A program made the position numbers and the translations under genes. Below are positions 29,165-52,780 of a stretch of DNA of 64,000 nucleotides, one piece after another; the stretch's first letter is position 1; each line of letters starts with the position of its first letter. Under the pieces are notes generated by a model. The model saw only the letters and a list, made by a program, of their open reading frames with translations. It was not told the origin of the DNA and made no database searches. This DNA comes from the human T2T-CHM13v2.0 reference genome, Homo sapiens, in assembly GCF_009914755.1 (NCBI RefSeq), contig NC_060943.1. One strand, given 5' to 3'.

Positions 29165-29420
29165 GCAGGAGGGGCTTTTGTTTTATCCAAGCTCTCTGTC
29201 CCCGCCCCCTCCCCCAGTAGCCTGTCGGGTGTCTCCTGCCTCCAAATCGGATCTAATTCTCTCTGCTCTGCTGAGACTGGCCCTGGCTTAAGAGGACTGG
29301 AACACTTGCTACATGGGACCAGGACAGGGTCAGAGAACCAGCGCCGGGGAGACCCAAGGGCCAGGATTGCCACCAGGGGGCAGCAGAGAGGCAGAGTAGC
29401 AGAAGGAAGAGGTGGGGGTG
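29165..29420 (+). repeat. Local paralogous module, copy A, with CTCF motif at 29367-29385
   Basis: Shares CCAAATCGGATCTAATTCT...TAAGAGGA.TGGAACA.TTGCTA.ATGGGAC.AGGACAGGGT...GCCACCAGGGGGC with copies B and C. Confidence 0.85.
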
Positions 29421-32400
29421 CTTCCATCTGACGGCGGGCAGTGGGAGGGCGGGGTGGTGGATGAGGAGGGGATGGTATAGAGGGAACAGTCCTCCCACCC
29501 CCACCAGAGTGGGTTAACAGTACTTACATGGTCACTGGATGCGTATTGAAGAATGAGCCCAGGCTCAGTGATTCACGCCTGTAATCTCAACACTGGGAGG
29601 TTGAAATGGGAGGGTCTCTGGAGGTCAGGAGTTCGAGACCAGCCTGGGCAATGTGAAAAAACCCCGTTCCTACCAAAAATACAAAAGATTAGCCAGGCGT
29701 GGTGGCACGCGCCTGTGGTCCCAGCCACTCGGGAGGCTGAGGTGGGAGGATCCCTTGAGCCCAGGAGGTGGAGGTTACAGTGAGCTGAGATCACACCCAT
29801 TGCACTCCAGCCTGGGCGACAGAGTGAGACCCTGACTCAAAAAACAAACAAACAAACGAAAAAACAACAACAAGATAATTGAAGAAGATGTGGGCCAGGC
29901 GAGGTGGCTCACGCCTGTAATCCCAGCACTTTGGGAGGCCAAAGTGGTTGGATCACTGGAGGTCAGGAGTTCAAGACCAGCCTAGCCAACATGGTGAAAC
30001 CCCGACTCTACTAAAAACACAAAAATGGCATGGTGGTACGTGCCTGTATTCCCAGCTACTTGGGAGGCTGAGGCAGGAGAATTGCTTGAAACTGGGAGGC
30101 AGAGGTTGCACTGAGCTGAGATCGCATCACTGTACTCTAGCCCCTGGGTGACAGAGAGACTTCATCTCAAAAAAAAAAAAAAAAAAGAGAGAGACTGACA
30201 GAAAAAGACCAAGAACATTCTGTATGTGATGCTATTATTAGCTATAATAATGGCAGATATGGTTTGTTGATCACTGACCATAATCAGTGTTAAGATTTAC
30301 ATGATTTGACTCATCTAACCCTTCTCCAAACCCTCCCTTTCACCAAAAAATCTTTCATATTAAAAATTCACAGTTTTTTTTTTTTTTGAGATGGAGTCTC
30401 ACTCTGTCACCTAGGCTGGAGTGCAGTGGCATGATTTCGGCTCACTGCAACTTCTGCCTCCTGGGTTCGAGAGATTCTCCTGCCTCAGCACCCCAAGTAG
30501 CTGAGACTACAGGCACGCACCACCACACTCAGCTAATTTTTTATTTTATATTTATTTATTTTTATTTTATTTTATTTTTTTGAGATGGAGTTCCGCTCTT
30601 GCTGCCCAGGTTGGAGTGCAATGGCGCGATTTCTGCTCACTGCAACCTCTGCCTCCCAGGTTCAAGCAATTCTCCTGCCTCAGCTTCCCGAGTAGCTGGG
30701 GTTACAGGCATGTGTCACTACGCCCAGCTGATTTTGTATTTTTAGTAGAGACGGGGTTTCTCCATGTTGGTCAGGCTGTTCTCAAACTCCCGACCTCAGG
30801 TGATCTGCCCGCCTCGGCCTCCCAAAGTGCTGGGATTACAGGTATGAGCCACCGCACCAGGCCCAATTCACAGAGTTTTAAAACATCAACTTTTAAAGAT
30901 AGATGCTTTCTTTACATTAGATAAAACACACTTGTCTTAAGTGTTCAGTATAATTGCTTTGATAAATGTATGCAACTGTCTGGGTGCGGTGGCTCATGCC
31001 TGTAATCCCAACACTTTGGGAGGCTGAGGCAAGAGTATCACTTGAACCCGAGAGTTCAAGAGCATCCTGGGCAACATAGCAAGACCCTGTCTCTACAAAA
31101 AATAAAAAAAAATTGGCTGGGCATGGTGGTGTGCACCTGTAGTCTTAGCTACTTGGGAGGCTGAGGTGGAAGGATCACTTGAGCCTGAGAGCTTAAGGCT
31201 GCGATAAGCCATGTTTGTGCCACTGCACTCCAGCCTGGGTGACACAGTGAGACCCGTCTCAAAAAAGGATCAACAACAACAAAGTATACAACTATGATAC
31301 CAGCACCCAAACAAGAAGCATCCATCAGCCCCCAAATTTCCCTGGGACCTTTTTGCAGTCATTTTATATTCATTCTCACACCTGCCTGGGCAACCACCAA
31401 TCTGCTTTCTCTAACTATAGATTACTTCTGTCTCTTCTAGAATTTCATATAAATGAAATAGTATCATATAGAGCTTTCTGTAACTACAGATTATTTCCAT
31501 ATCTTCTAGAATTTCATAGAAATGAAATTGCATCACATACAACCTCTTGTGTCTGGCTTTTTTCACCCAACATAAATGATTTTGAGATTCTTCCATATCA
31601 CATGTGTATCCACAGCTTGTTCCTTTTCAGTGCTGTGTTATAGTCCATTGTATGGACATACCATAATTTGCTTAACCATTCACTTGGGCTGTTTCTATTT
31701 TGGTCTTTTATGAATAAAGTTGTTATGAATATTCTTGTACAAGTCTTCCTGTGGACATATGTTTATTTCTTATTTATTATTTTTCTCGAGACAGGGTCTT
31801 GCTTTGTCACTGAGGCTGGACACAAGGCTTGCTGTGTCCTTGTCCTGGGCTCTAGTGATCCTCCCATCTCAGCCTCCTAAGTAGCTGGAATTACAAGTGT
31901 GTACCATCATGCTCAGTTAATTTTAATATTTTTATAGAGATGGGGTCTCATTATATTGCCCAGACTGGTCTCAAGCAGTCCTCCTGCCTCAGCCTCCCAA
32001 AGTTTTTTTTTTGAGACGGAGTCTTGCTCTGTCACCAGGCTGGAGTGCAGTGGCATGATCTTGGCTCACTGCAACCTCCACCTCCTGGGTTCAAGCAATT
32101 CTCCTGCCTCAGCCTCCCAAGTAGCTGGGACTACAGGCATGCACCACTACACCCAGCTAATTTTTGTATTTTTAGTAGAGATGAGGTTTCACCATGTTGG
32201 CTAGGATGGTCTCGATCTCTTGACCTTGTGATCCACTCGCCTCGGCCTCCCAAAGTGCTGGGATTTCAGGCGTGAGCCACTGCATGTGGTCCATTTTAGT
32301 TTTAATATGCATTTCCCTGATGATTTTTGATGTCATGGGCTTACTGGCCTTTTTGCATATCTTTTTTTTTTTTTTTTTTTTTTTGAGACGGGAGGCTGGC

Positions 32401-33205
32401 TCTGTCACCCAGGCTGGAGTCAGTGGCACGATCTTGGTTCACTGCAACCTCCACCTCCTGGGTTCAACCAATTCTCCAGCCTCAGCCTCTGGAGTAGCCA
32501 CCACACCTAATTTTTGTATTTTTAGTAGAGACAAGGTTTCACCATGTTGGTCAGGCTGGTCTCGAACTCCTGACCTCAGGTGATCCTCCGGCCTCGGCCT
32601 CCCAAAGTGCTGGGATTACAGGCATGAGCCACCGTGCCCGGCTTTTTTTGTATTTTTAGTAGAGACAGGGTTTTGCCATGTTGCCCAGGTGGTCTTGAAC
32701 TCCTGGGCTCCAGCCATCCTCCTGCCAAAGCCTCTCAAAGCGCTGGAATTACAGGCATGAGCCACTGTGCACAGCCTGGTCTAAGAAATCCTTGCTCACT
32801 CCAAGACTGTAAAAATATTCTCCTATGGATGCTTCTAGAAGCTTCCTGGTTGTAGCTTTTCATTTGGAGTGAGGTGGGAGTCAAGGTTTTTTTTGTTTTT
32901 GTTTTTGTTTTTGTTTTTTTTTTTTTGAGACAGAGTTTTGCTCTTGTTGCCCAGGCTGGAGTGTAATGGCGTGATTTTGGCTCATTGCAACCTCCACCTC
33001 CCGGGTTCAAGTGATTCTCCTGCCTCAGCCTCTCGGGTAGCTGGGATTACAGTCATGCACCACCACGCCCGGCTAATTTTTTAGTAGAGATGGGGTTTCT
33101 CCATGTTGGTCAGGCTGGTCTCGAACTCCTGACCTCAGGTGATCTGCCCGCCTCAACCTCCCAAAGTACTGGGATTACAGGGGTGAGCCACCGTGCCCAG
33201 CCCAG

Positions 33206-33727
33206 TTTATTTTTATTTATTTACTTTTTTATGGTGAAAAGATATACATATATTGAGAATTAGCCAGCTGGACTCAGTTTAGATGATCCCAATTTTGTTG
33301 GCAACATCCAAAGCATTGTAACCAGGAGTCGGTTGAACATGTGACTTCTTCTCTCCGTCAGGCCGAATCAGAGCTTCTTCACAGCCTGTTTGATCTGGTG
33401 CTCCTTGGCTTTAACATCTATAATGAAGGCAAGCGTGTTGTTGTCGTCTGTCTTCTTCATGGCGGACTCAGTGGTCGGCGGAAACGTGATGATCGCAGAG
33501 TGGCCAAGCTTGTTTCTCCAGGGGGCGCTCTTCTGAGGATATTTGGGCTCCCTCCGGAGTCGCGCTGTCTTGGGCCGCCTGAAGGTGGGTGACCTGCGGA
33601 TCTTCTCTTCTGTGTGGCTGTGGACGGCTTTCAACACTGCTTTCTTGGCCTTTAAAGCCTTCGGTTTGGCTTGGGCTTTAGGAGAGGCAGGAGCTTCCTT
33701 CGCTTTCGGCAGCATCTTGTGAAAAGA
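33206..33727 (-). pseudogene. RPL23AP80: Processed RPL23A (uL23) pseudogene
   Basis: Intronless. ATG at 33715 gives ...[11 protein letters not shown]...PTFRRPKT...TTESAMKK...[10 protein letters not shown]. An internal deletion (YDIDVAKVNT missing) causes a frameshift and premature TGA; the out-of-frame C-terminus ...DVANKIGII* ends at 33279. An A-rich tail lies at ~33206-33230. The family assignment is clear from sequence; the symbol number is from memory. Confidence 0.9.
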
Positions 33728-33781
33728 CAAGGTTAATTTTTGTTTTTGACCTTTTTTTTTTTTTTTTTGAGATGGAGTCTT

Positions 33782-51700: not shown

Positions 51701-51911
51701 GAGTTCAAGACCAGTCTGGCCAACATGGTGAAACCCCGTCTGTACTAAAAATACAAAAAATTAGCCAGGTATGGTGGCACGCGCCTGTAATCCTAGCTAC
51801 TCAGGAGGTTGAAGCAGGAGAATCGCTTGAACCCAGGAGGTGGAGGTTACAGTGAGACGAGCTCACACCACTGCATTCCAGCCTGGGCGACAGAGTGAGA
51901 CTGTGTCTCAA

Positions 51912-51970
51912 AAATAAATAAATAAATAAATAAATAAATAAATAAATAAATAAATAAATAATAATAAATA
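51912..51970 (+). repeat. (AAAT)n Alu-tail microsatellite
   Basis: Directly visible. Confidence 0.9.
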
Positions 51971-52314
51971 AAACAACCCCCCCCACCCCGCCAAAATTAG
52001 CCAGGCGGAGTGGCGTGCTCCTGTAGTCCCAGCTACTTGGGAGGCTGAGGTGGGAGGATCGCTGGAGTCTGGGAGGTTGAGGCTGCAATGAGCAGTGATT
52101 CCCCGACCTGCACTCCAGCCTGGGCAACAGGGTGAGACCCTGTCTCAACAAACAAACAACAAACAAAACTCCCCAAAAGCCCACGACCCCCCCAAAACAC
52201 ACAAAAAACAAAAAGCCACATGCCAAGAATTAATAAGTAACTCTGGATGAGGGAATCGGGTCCTTGTAGAGAGGGGAGTTGTTCCAGAATTGCAGGTGGA
52301 GGCACTAGGCACTC

Positions 52315-52780
52315 CGGTGACCGTGGCGGCGAGAGTCAAGCTGGGAAGACACTTTCCAGGCGCGGGGAGCAAGATCTCTCAGCCTCCAGGTGCCCTCTCT
52401 GCCCCTTGGCATCCCCCCACCCTGCCCCTCTGTCTCCCCCTTTCTCTGTTCCTCAGTTTCCCCTCCTCGTTGTCCCTTGTGGGGTCCCAGTGTGTGAGTT
52501 GCTTTGTGTCTACCCCCTTCCAGGGTCTGACAAGCAGAAGGAGTTTTCATTATATCCTGGAAGTCTGTCCCCCAACCCCCAAATCGGATCTAATTCTGCT
52601 CTGCTGAGGCTGGCCTGGCCTGGCCTAAGAGGATTGGAACATTTGCTAAATGGGACTAGGACAGGGTGAGAGAGGCGTCGCTGGGGAGACCCAGGTGCCA
52701 GGACGGCCACCAGGGGGCGGCAGAGGACGAGGGAGACCAGAAGACAGAGGGGACAGAGAAGGGCGTGGTGGGGGCGGGGT
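52315..52780 (+). repeat. Local paralogous module, copy C, with CTCF motif at 52704-52722
   Basis: As for copies A and B. Translated frames also match (GLRGLEHLL-GTRTG; FSLYPGSLSP). Confidence 0.85.

What the first reader, a model, noticed from the sequence alone, without database searches (positions are those of the whole stretch)
29165..52780. Triplicated CTCF-bearing module arrayed around TPRX1
Seen: a ~250-470 bp block recurs three times in the same orientation, at ~29165-29420, ~37610-38070 and ~52315-52780. Shared anchors include CCAAATCGGATCTAATTCT (A, C), TTTTCATTATATCC (B, C) and GGACAGGGT (all three). Each copy has a CTCF-type motif near its 3' end: TTGCCACCAGGGGGCAGCA (29367), CGGCCACCAGGGGGCGGCA (52704) and a decayed TGGCCACAAGGTGATGGCA (38009). 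I do not recognise the block as a known transposable element. Established: TPRX genes arose by tandem duplication from CRX, and CTCF motif orientation sets loop anchors. Inference: these are fossils of the duplications that built the CRX/TPRX cluster, possibly retained as insulators separating broadly expressed SELENOW, embryo-specific TPRX1 and retinal CRX.
Basis: partly seen in the sequence, partly recalled or inferred. Interest (0 to 1): 0.8.

Follow-up and report, generated by a model that had tools for sequence, protein, structure and literature searches.

The report
Duplicated CRX conserved element, some with CTCF motifs
The repeated block is real and is the already published non-coding element that was copied along with each duplication of the CRX homeobox gene; three of its copies carry strong CTCF motifs whose binding has still to be shown.

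Summary
The three copies exist at the stated coordinates and are not chance matches. They belong to a larger, locus-restricted family. There are five clear copies in the TPRX1-CRX-TPRX2 cluster: A, B and C in the window, E 3' of CRX and D 3' of TPRX2. There is also a decayed sixth copy (F, window 36924-37116) and a weak seventh 14.5 kb upstream of ARGFX on chr3. Genome-wide BLAST with four copies found only local copies, and none lies in masked repeat, so it is not a transposable element. Maeso et al. [quoted passage not shown] Number, position and orientation match what I find. The duplication-fossil reading is therefore right but already published. The CTCF part is not in that paper's main text. 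Exact CTCF-core matches occur only in A (+), C (+) and D (-), a convergent arrangement around CRX. B is decayed, and E, F and G lack the motif. The best-conserved part is a ~100-bp core upstream of the motif, not the motif. CTCF occupancy could not be tested here.

The parts
29163..29399 (+). Copy A: a gene-less 'ghost' copy of the CRX 3' conserved non-coding element, lying between SELENOW and RPL23AP80.
   Evidence: R1 profile 180.7 bits (A was used to build the model). 83% identical to C and D. Not in a masked repeat. tblastn found no homeobox relic nearby.
29370..29382 (+). CTCF-type core CCACCAGGGGGCA in copy A, forward orientation.
   Evidence: Exact match to the recalled 13-nt consensus.
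36924..37116 (+). Copy F: a decayed sixth copy about 700 bp upstream of B. It keeps the TAAGAGGATT core word and has no CTCF core.
   Evidence: R1 41.4 bits, E 3.8e-12 in the window and 1.8e-7 genome-wide. F was not used to build R1. It is one of 3 window matches to TAAGAGGATT, expected 0.17.
37811..38042 (+). Copy B: the 3' element of TPRX1, 2.0 kb beyond the gene's 3' end and antisense to it. Similarity to C extends upstream to about 37706.
   Evidence: R1 191.7 bits. B-D 76.4% over 284 bp, collinear with the TPRX1/TPRX2 inverted homology.
38009..38027 (+). Decayed CTCF-like string in copy B (core reads CCACAAGGTGATG).
   Evidence: It is not among the matches with at most 1 mismatch.
52532..52737 (+). 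Copy C: a 'ghost' copy between the TPRX1 main promoter and CRX, inside the long TPRX1 intron. Similarity to B extends upstream to about 52425.
   Evidence: R1 159.9 bits. Genome-wide BLAST gave 5 of 5 hits local.
52707..52719 (+). CTCF-type core CCACCAGGGGGCG in copy C, forward orientation.
   Evidence: Exact match.
55797..57422 (-). Remnant beside copy C that resembles CRX intron 1. It is an inverted copy of window 61943-63707 and contains TPRX1 alternative exon 57307-57377.
   Evidence: 78-85% identity. Genome-wide, the only long match is CRX intron 1.
61943..63707 (+). The CRX intron 1 segment that is the partner of 55797-57422.

Best explanation
The block is the paralogous family of an old conserved non-coding element that sits 3' of CRX. 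Each time the CRX unit was duplicated in the ancestors of placental mammals, the element was copied with it. In the present human cluster, B marks TPRX1, E marks CRX and D marks TPRX2, each a few kb past the gene's 3' end and antisense to it. A and C (and probably F) mark duplicates whose genes have been lost. G shows that a copy also travelled with ARGFX to chr3. That much is shown by sequence and by Maeso et al. 2016. What follows is inferred. All copies keep a ~100-bp core, which points to a transcription-factor-binding regulatory module. In A, C and D the 3' part is a consensus CTCF site, with A and C pointing right and D pointing left. These three would then act as convergent loop anchors: C-D around CRX and TPRX2, and A-D around the whole cluster. 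C would separate the TPRX1 main promoter from CRX.
For: The family is restricted to this locus. BLAST with A, C, D and E finds 4 of 4, 5 of 5, 5 of 5 and 4 of 4 candidates inside chr19:50.62-50.69 Mb. The same tool returns 524 and 1241 candidates for real dispersed repeats. No copy overlaps a masked repeat. B-D and C-E are collinear with the inverted TPRX1/TPRX2 homology. In the B/D pair the element is an island of similarity. The spacers between element and gene hold 730 and 743 unmasked bp and show no match at E<=0.05, while the element (76%) and the gene 3' end (80%) both align. Core identity among A-D is 83-91%, and 72-80% to E. Outside the cluster, the only genome-wide profile hit with E<0.01 lies 14.5 kb upstream of ARGFX, another CRX-derived gene. 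It is antisense to ARGFX, like E before TPRX2. Maeso et al. 2016 report five copies, three of them 3' of the genes in the same relative orientation, two ghost loci, and a single copy in turtle and coelacanth. For CTCF, there are 4 exact core matches in 134 kb and 3 of them are in A, C and D. Among A, C and D the core differs only at 2 of 13 positions, both degenerate in the consensus. Gawriyski et al. 2023 state that CTCF binding sites exist near CRX and coincide with LEUTX binding (passages read).
Against: I could not see Maeso's figure or supplement, so I equate their CNE with this block from number, position and orientation only. CTCF occupancy was not testable. The motif is decayed in B and absent from E, F and G, that is 4 of 7 copies. 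E is the CRX copy and presumably the ancestral one, so the motif may be a secondary feature. Among A, C and D the core (2 of 13 variable columns) is no better kept than the 30 columns upstream of it (3 of 22), so the counts do not show selection on the motif. By my own estimate, identities of 68-83% are close to what neutral duplicates from the stem of placental mammals could still show in the slowly evolving human lineage. G scores only 31.7 bits, and just 150 of 288784 first-look candidates were scored. No copy was found in the 10-kb flanks of LEUTX or DPRX.
Confidence: 0.85

Rival explanations
1. The copies are neutral fossils. They are leftovers of the duplications with no present function, and the CTCF-like strings are inherited sequence that happens not to have decayed yet in three copies.
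For: B, E, F and G have lost the motif. F and G are heavily decayed. Overall identities are 57-83%. The core is not measurably better kept than its upstream neighbour columns.
Against: The element is an island of similarity between unalignable unmasked spacers in the B/D pair. The core is 83-91% identical among A-D. Maeso et al. report all five copies in other placental mammals and the CRX copy in turtle and coelacanth. Two CpG-containing cores (C, D) are intact.
Confidence: 0.15
2. The conserved function is that of an enhancer-type regulatory module in the ~100-bp core, bound for instance by homeodomain or pluripotency factors. CTCF binding is incidental or absent.
For: The core, not the CTCF part, is shared by all five strong copies and is partly kept in F and G. 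D overlaps a RefSeq 'H3K4me1 hESC enhancer' (cluster 102602-103103). E ends about 90 bp from an 'OCT4-NANOG-H3K27ac hESC enhancer' (87962-88825). LEUTX-dependent enhancers are reported upstream of TPRX1, downstream of CRX and upstream of TPRX2, without coordinates in the text I read.
Against: No shared K50 homeodomain site: TAATCC occurs in only 2 of 7 copies, E and D. No RefSeq functional element overlaps A, B or C. No motif library was available to test other factors.
Confidence: 0.4
3. The block is a low-copy interspersed repeat (transposable element) that inserted several times in this region.
For: The 5' part of B and C contains a CCTCAGTTTCCCC string that reminded me of MIR. This is recall only and was not tested.
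Against: Four BLAST queries and one profile search found no dispersed copies. The same tool reports hundreds of candidates for true repeats. The block is not masked. The copies sit at equivalent positions and orientations relative to paralogous genes.
Confidence: 0.02
4. The block encodes a structured non-coding RNA or a conserved lncRNA exon.
For: D lies in sense inside the terminal exon of LINC01595 (cluster 102155-102952, minus strand).
Against: No Rfam family matches in any copy. RNAalifold gives a positive (unfavourable) covariation term, +3.16. No transcript is annotated over A, B, C or E.
Confidence: 0.03

Closest known systems
Duplicated CRX/TPRX conserved non-coding element (CNE) of Maeso, Dunwell et al. 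2016, BMC Biol 14:45
   Same: Five copies in the human TPRX1-CRX-TPRX2 region. One copy lies 3' of each of the three genes in the same relative orientation, and two further copies have no gene ('ghost' loci). The paper uses them as evidence that TPRX genes arose from CRX by tandem duplication.
   Different: The paper's main text never mentions CTCF, insulators or enhancers (0 occurrences each). It reports five copies, and I also find a decayed sixth (F) and one near ARGFX (G). Their exact coordinates are in a figure and supplement that I could not see.
Convergent CTCF loop anchors / insulators (general model, own knowledge)
   Same: Consensus core motifs with forward orientation on the left (A, C) and reverse orientation on the right (D) of a gene cluster.
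   Different: Occupancy, cohesin retention and insulation were not shown here. Only 3 of 7 family members have the motif.
CTCF sites spread by transposable elements (e.g. rodent SINE B2; own knowledge)
   Same: One sequence family supplies several CTCF motifs.
   Different: Here the sites were multiplied by segmental duplication of a gene unit within one locus, not by transposition. There are no dispersed copies.

Membership tests
Maeso 2016 duplicated CRX 3' CNE | Five copies in the human TPRX1-CRX-TPRX2 region | tested here: met
   A, B, C, D and E were found by BLAST. Filters-off profile scans of all 134 kb gave no other strong copy, only the decayed F.
Maeso 2016 duplicated CRX 3' CNE | One copy downstream of each of TPRX1, CRX and TPRX2, in the same relative orientation | tested here: met
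   B(+) is 2.0 kb past TPRX1(-). E(-) is 5.5 kb past CRX(+). D(-) is 1.85 kb past TPRX2(+). All three are antisense to their gene.
Maeso 2016 duplicated CRX 3' CNE | Two further copies not associated with homeobox genes (ghost loci) | tested here: met
   These are A and C. tblastn with TPRX1, TPRX2 and CRX found homeobox matches only at the three genes at E<=10.
Maeso 2016 duplicated CRX 3' CNE | At least 70% identity over 70 bp to the CRX copy (their VISTA setting) | tested here: met
   E-B 77% over 115 bp, E-C 79% over 73 bp and E-D 77% over 86-90 bp. E-A is met only in the core (73% over 91 columns) and is 64% over 255 bp overall.
Maeso 2016 duplicated CRX 3' CNE | [quoted passage not shown] | not testable with these tools
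   No other vertebrate genome was available. This rests on the paper.
Maeso 2016 duplicated CRX 3' CNE | Same coordinates as the published CNEs | not testable with these tools
   The coordinates appear only in Fig. 3b and Additional file 2. Figures are not held and supplements are closed.
CTCF-bound insulator / loop anchor | Match to the CTCF core motif | tested here: met
   Met for A, C and D (exact 13-mer). Not met for B, E, F and G. The consensus was recalled, not taken from a motif library.
CTCF-bound insulator / loop anchor | Convergent orientation of paired anchors | tested here: met
   A and C are forward and D is reverse.
CTCF-bound insulator / loop anchor | CTCF/cohesin occupancy in cells | not testable with these tools
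   No ChIP data were available. Gawriyski 2023 mentions CTCF sites near CRX without coordinates in the main text.
CTCF-bound insulator / loop anchor | Domain boundary or enhancer-blocking activity | not testable with these tools
   No Hi-C or Micro-C data or assays were available.
Interspersed repeat (transposable element) | Many unlinked copies in the genome | tested here: not met
   There were 4-5 candidates per BLAST query, all local. The profile search added only a site next to ARGFX. Positive controls gave 524 and 1241 candidates.
Interspersed repeat (transposable element) | Recognised by repeat masking | tested here: not met
   No copy overlaps a masked interval of the RefSeq soft-mask list, which holds intervals of 100 bp or more.
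Structured RNA family | Rfam match or covarying base pairs | tested here: not met

The most novel reading that the evidence does not exclude
The gene-less 'ghost' copies A and C, together with TPRX2's copy D, may have survived because their 3' ends are functional CTCF sites. A CRX 3' regulatory element, multiplied by gene duplication, would then have been reused as a nested pair of convergent loop anchors (A and C forward, D reverse). These anchors would wall the retinal CRX domain off from the embryo-specific TPRX1 promoter. The same element travelled with ARGFX to chr3, which gives direct non-coding evidence for how ARGFX left the cluster. This would be an insulator architecture built by segmental duplication of an enhancer-like CNE rather than by transposons.
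Probability: 0.3. Interest if true: 0.55.

Novelty: already known. Interest (0 to 1): 0.3.

Why it matters
The repeat is a textbook-quality trace of how a retinal homeobox gene (CRX) gave rise to the embryo-specific ETCHbox genes. That lesson is already in print (Maeso et al. 2016). Three points would be new and need experiments. First, whether three of the paralogous elements are real CTCF anchors that keep CRX (retina) and TPRX1/TPRX2 (8-cell embryo) regulation apart. Second, whether that explains why the gene-less ghost copies persist. Third, whether the weak copy upstream of ARGFX is orthologous in other mammals. CRX is a retinal-disease gene and TPRX1 is a marker of 8-cell-like cells, so knowing the boundaries of their regulatory domains has practical value for interpreting non-coding variants and structural variants in this locus.

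Tried and rejected
1. Larger A/C duplication. A second match (34533-34716 with 58004-58198, 68%) lies at nearly the same distance from A as from C and looked like proof of a 5.5-kb tandem unit. Genome-wide, that segment is an old dispersed repeat missing from the mask list, with 1241 candidates at about 70-75% identity. 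I rejected it.

2. Relic homeoboxes beside A and C. tblastn with the TPRX1 (two isoforms), CRX and TPRX2 proteins against 134 kb at E<=10 found homeobox matches only at the three genes.

3. Shared K50-homeodomain (TAATCC, recalled) site in the core. It is present in only 2 of 7 copies (E, D), and the word is common in the cluster (264 hits). I rejected it as a family feature.

4. RNA gene. No Rfam match and no covariation.

5. Copies at other CRX-derived genes. R1 and R2 scans with filters off covered 10 kb on each side of LEUTX, 10 kb on each side of DPRX and 9 kb at the ARGFX 3' end. The best scores were 7.3 and 10.5 bits, which is noise. Gene bodies, OTX1, OTX2 and TPRXL were not scanned.

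6. Phylogeny of the seven copies. The grouping is (A,C) with D, then B, then (E,F), with G on a long branch. No branch reached the starred support level, so I draw no order of events from it.

7. Selection on the CTCF core. The counts are too small (2 of 13 against 55 of 201 variable columns).

8. Literature on CTCF at these sites. I searched 'TPRX1'+'CTCF' (23 papers, listing of 15 seen), 'ETCHbox'+'CTCF' (2 papers), 'CRX locus'+'CTCF' (3 papers) and 'Crx enhancer'+'downstream' (1 paper). Only Gawriyski et al. 2023 touches the locus, and it gives no coordinates in its main text. Its Fig. S9A and Maeso's Additional file 2 are supplements I could not see, and both may bear on the claim. 'ETCHbox'+'conserved non-coding'+'ghost' returns only Maeso 2016. 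Lewin et al. 2021 (passages) has no occurrence of 'non-coding'. Royall et al. 2019 (passages) has no occurrence of CNE.

Full report
OBSERVATION. Every quoted anchor is there, and the three CTCF-like strings begin exactly at 29367, 38009 and 52704. A three-way alignment has 160 invariant columns. In a repeat-masked self-comparison of the locus the copies match each other as follows:
- A-C: 83.1% over 154 bp
- A-B: 72.6% over 252 bp
- B-C: 68.1% over 364 bp
All three matches are in the same orientation, with E-values of 1e-38 to 6e-30.

HOW MANY COPIES, AND WHERE. A genome-wide BLAST of copy C against the T2T reference returned 5 candidates, all scored, and all lie within chr19:50.62-50.69 Mb. 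The same held for the other queries: A gave 4 of 4, D gave 5 of 5 and E gave 4 of 4. As a positive control, the same tool gave 524 and 1241 first-look candidates for an Alu-like flank and for an old unmasked repeat. None of the copies overlaps an interval of the RefSeq repeat mask. The block is therefore not a dispersed repeat.

I fetched the 70 kb to the right of the window. Below, cluster coordinates continue the window numbering, so chr19 position = 50,592,000 + x. The copies are:
- A: 29163-29399 (+)
- B: 37811-38042 (+)
- C: 52532-52737 (+)
- E: 87640-87875 (-)
- D: 102499-102733 (-)
A sequence-only profile of these five (R1) was run with filters off over all 134 kb. It added one decayed copy, F, at 36924-37116 (+), scoring 41.4 bits. 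The next best score was 14.7 bits.

Run genome-wide, R1 recovered the six cluster copies and one further place with E<0.01: chr3:124273228-124273401 (-), 31.7 bits, E 1.9e-4. All other hits had E>=0.13. Only 150 of 288784 first-look candidates were scored, so this search is not exhaustive. The chr3 site lies 14.5 kb upstream of ARGFX (+), another homeobox gene derived from CRX (Maeso et al. 2016). The alignment shows two clear anchors and a deletion of the CTCF part. The site itself is single-copy and abuts a high-copy repeat on its 5' side. I call it G and regard it as probably homologous. The reason is that a random site would have roughly a 1-in-10,000 or smaller chance of falling this close to one of the few dispersed CRX-derived genes; that figure is my own estimate.

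RELATION TO THE GENES. The genes and their strands are: TPRX1 (-) 40045-57890, with its main transcript starting at 43352; CRX (+) 60778-82184; and TPRX2 (+) 98160-100646. The three gene-linked copies sit as follows:
- B lies 2.0 kb beyond the 3' end of TPRX1.
- E lies 5.5 kb beyond the 3' end of CRX.
- D lies 1.85 kb beyond the 3' end of TPRX2.
Each is antisense to its gene. The TPRX1 and TPRX2 gene bodies are inverted copies of each other (40183-44635 against 100842-96840). Identity rises from 80% at the 3' end to 97% upstream of the promoters. This agrees with the repeated, 5'-biased gene conversion described by Lewin et al. 2021 (passages). B-D (76.4%) and C-E (79.5% over 73 bp) are collinear with this inversion.

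A and C have no gene. tblastn with the TPRX1, TPRX2 and CRX proteins found homeobox matches only at the three genes. Next to C, however, window 55797-57422 is an inverted copy (78-85%) of CRX intron 1 (61943-63707), and genome-wide that is its only long match. So the ghost unit beside C, oriented head-to-head with CRX, still carries CRX-intron-like DNA.

ALREADY KNOWN. Maeso, Dunwell et al. 2016 (BMC Biol 14:45; I read section 6, the Fig. 3b legend and the methods passage) compared fragments of the human TPRX1-CRX-TPRX2 region with VISTA. [quoted passage not shown] Number, placement and orientation match A-E exactly, although I could not see their figure or supplement for coordinates. A search for 'ETCHbox' + 'conserved non-coding' + 'ghost' returns only that paper.

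THE CTCF PART. 'CTCF', 'insulator' and 'enhancer' do not occur in Maeso's main text. Using a 13-nt core consensus that I recalled (no motif library was available), the window has exactly two matches, in A and C. The chance expectation is 0.15, and 1 of 100 shuffles reached 2. The 134-kb cluster has four exact matches:
- A (+)
- C (+)
- D (-)
- an unrelated site at 107992 (+) in LINC01595 exon 1
B has several mismatches, and E, F and G have no motif. A and C point right and D points left, which is the convergent arrangement expected of loop anchors under the general model (own knowledge). C-D would enclose CRX and TPRX2. A-D would enclose the whole cluster. C would lie between the TPRX1 main promoter and CRX.

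Several results count against a simple 'one insulator per gene' picture:
- CRX's own copy E has no motif, so nothing in this family separates CRX from TPRX2.
- The best-conserved segment is a ~100-bp core 40-140 bp upstream of the motif. It is 83-91% identical among A-D and 72-80% identical to E. The motif-bearing 3' part is 70-87% among A-D and only 45-58% to E.
- Among A, C and D the core motif varies at 2 of 13 columns, both degenerate in the consensus. The 30 columns upstream vary at 3 of 22 and the whole element at 55 of 201. These counts are too few to show selection on the motif.
Occupancy cannot be tested with these tools. Gawriyski et al. [quoted passage not shown] They also describe LEUTX-dependent enhancers upstream of TPRX1, downstream of CRX and upstream of TPRX2. 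The coordinates are only in their Fig. S9A, which I could not see.

IS THE ELEMENT CONSTRAINED? In the B/D pair the element aligns at 76% and the gene 3' ends align at 80%. The spacers between them hold 730 and 743 unmasked bp and give no match at E<=0.05. Together with the published cross-species conservation, this favours constraint on the core over pure neutral decay. RefSeq functional elements give weak support. D overlaps an 'H3K4me1 hESC enhancer', and E ends about 90 bp from an 'OCT4-NANOG-H3K27ac hESC enhancer'. Nothing is annotated over A, B or C. A shared K50 homeodomain site was not found, since TAATCC occurs in only 2 of 7 copies. An RNA function is unsupported, although D lies inside the last exon of LINC01595.

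VERDICT. The finding is real, and it is correctly interpreted as a relic of duplication, but this is already published. The new points are modest: CTCF cores in A, C and D in convergent orientation, a decayed sixth copy, a probable copy near ARGFX, and CRX-intron-like DNA beside ghost C. The insulator function remains an untested inference; I put the chance that A, C and D are occupied CTCF sites at about even, and at 0.3 that they work as the insulator architecture set out in the novel-case field.

Noticed in passing
window 55797-57422 and 61943-63707: There is a 1.6-kb inverted duplication (78-85% identity) on either side of the CRX promoter. The left arm holds the coding alternative exon of TPRX1 isoform NM_198479 (57307-57377), and its counterpart lies in CRX intron 1 (61943-62058). 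Genome-wide the two arms are each other's only long match. An internal piece (query 1224-1481) is a repeat also found on chr15 and chr3.
   Followed up: partly
window 57811-57890; cluster 118560-118640 (chr19:50710560-50710640): The first coding exon of the long TPRX1 isoform has an 89%-identical translated copy in a SULT2A1 intron. The exon is therefore probably derived from a repeat.
   Followed up: no
window 40183-44635 vs chr19:50688840-50692842: The TPRX1 and TPRX2 gene bodies are inverted copies. Identity climbs from 80% (3' end) to 97% (upstream of the promoters), and the first ~100 residues of the two proteins are nearly identical. This fits the published 5'-biased gene conversion.
   Followed up: partly
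window 43483 (-) and chr19:50690029 (+): CTCF-like sites with one mismatch (CCTCCAGGGGGCG) sit at paralogous positions about 130 bp upstream of the TPRX1 and TPRX2 main transcription starts.
   Followed up: no
chr19:50699992 (+) (cluster 107992): A fourth exact CTCF core lies in the first exon of LINC01595. It is not a copy of the element.
   Followed up: no
chr19:50694155-50694952 (cluster 102155-102952, -): Copy D lies, in sense, inside the terminal exon of the lncRNA LINC01595.
   Followed up: no
window 58004-58198 and 34533-34716: This is an old interspersed repeat (1241 genome candidates at about 70-75% identity) that is not in the RefSeq mask list. It mimicked a collinear duplication.
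   Followed up: yes
window 20356-20817; cluster 75773-78030: Tandem repeat arrays lie just past the last coding exon of SELENOW and in the last intron of CRX (self-BLAST).
   Followed up: no
window 23139-23206 (+): The SECIS element of SELENOW was recovered by Rfam (41.9 bits), as expected.
   Followed up: no
window 19441-19609 (-): A weak profile hit (14.7 bits, E 6.6e-4 in the window) overlaps SELENOW exon 2. It is GC-rich and I take it for noise.
   Followed up: no
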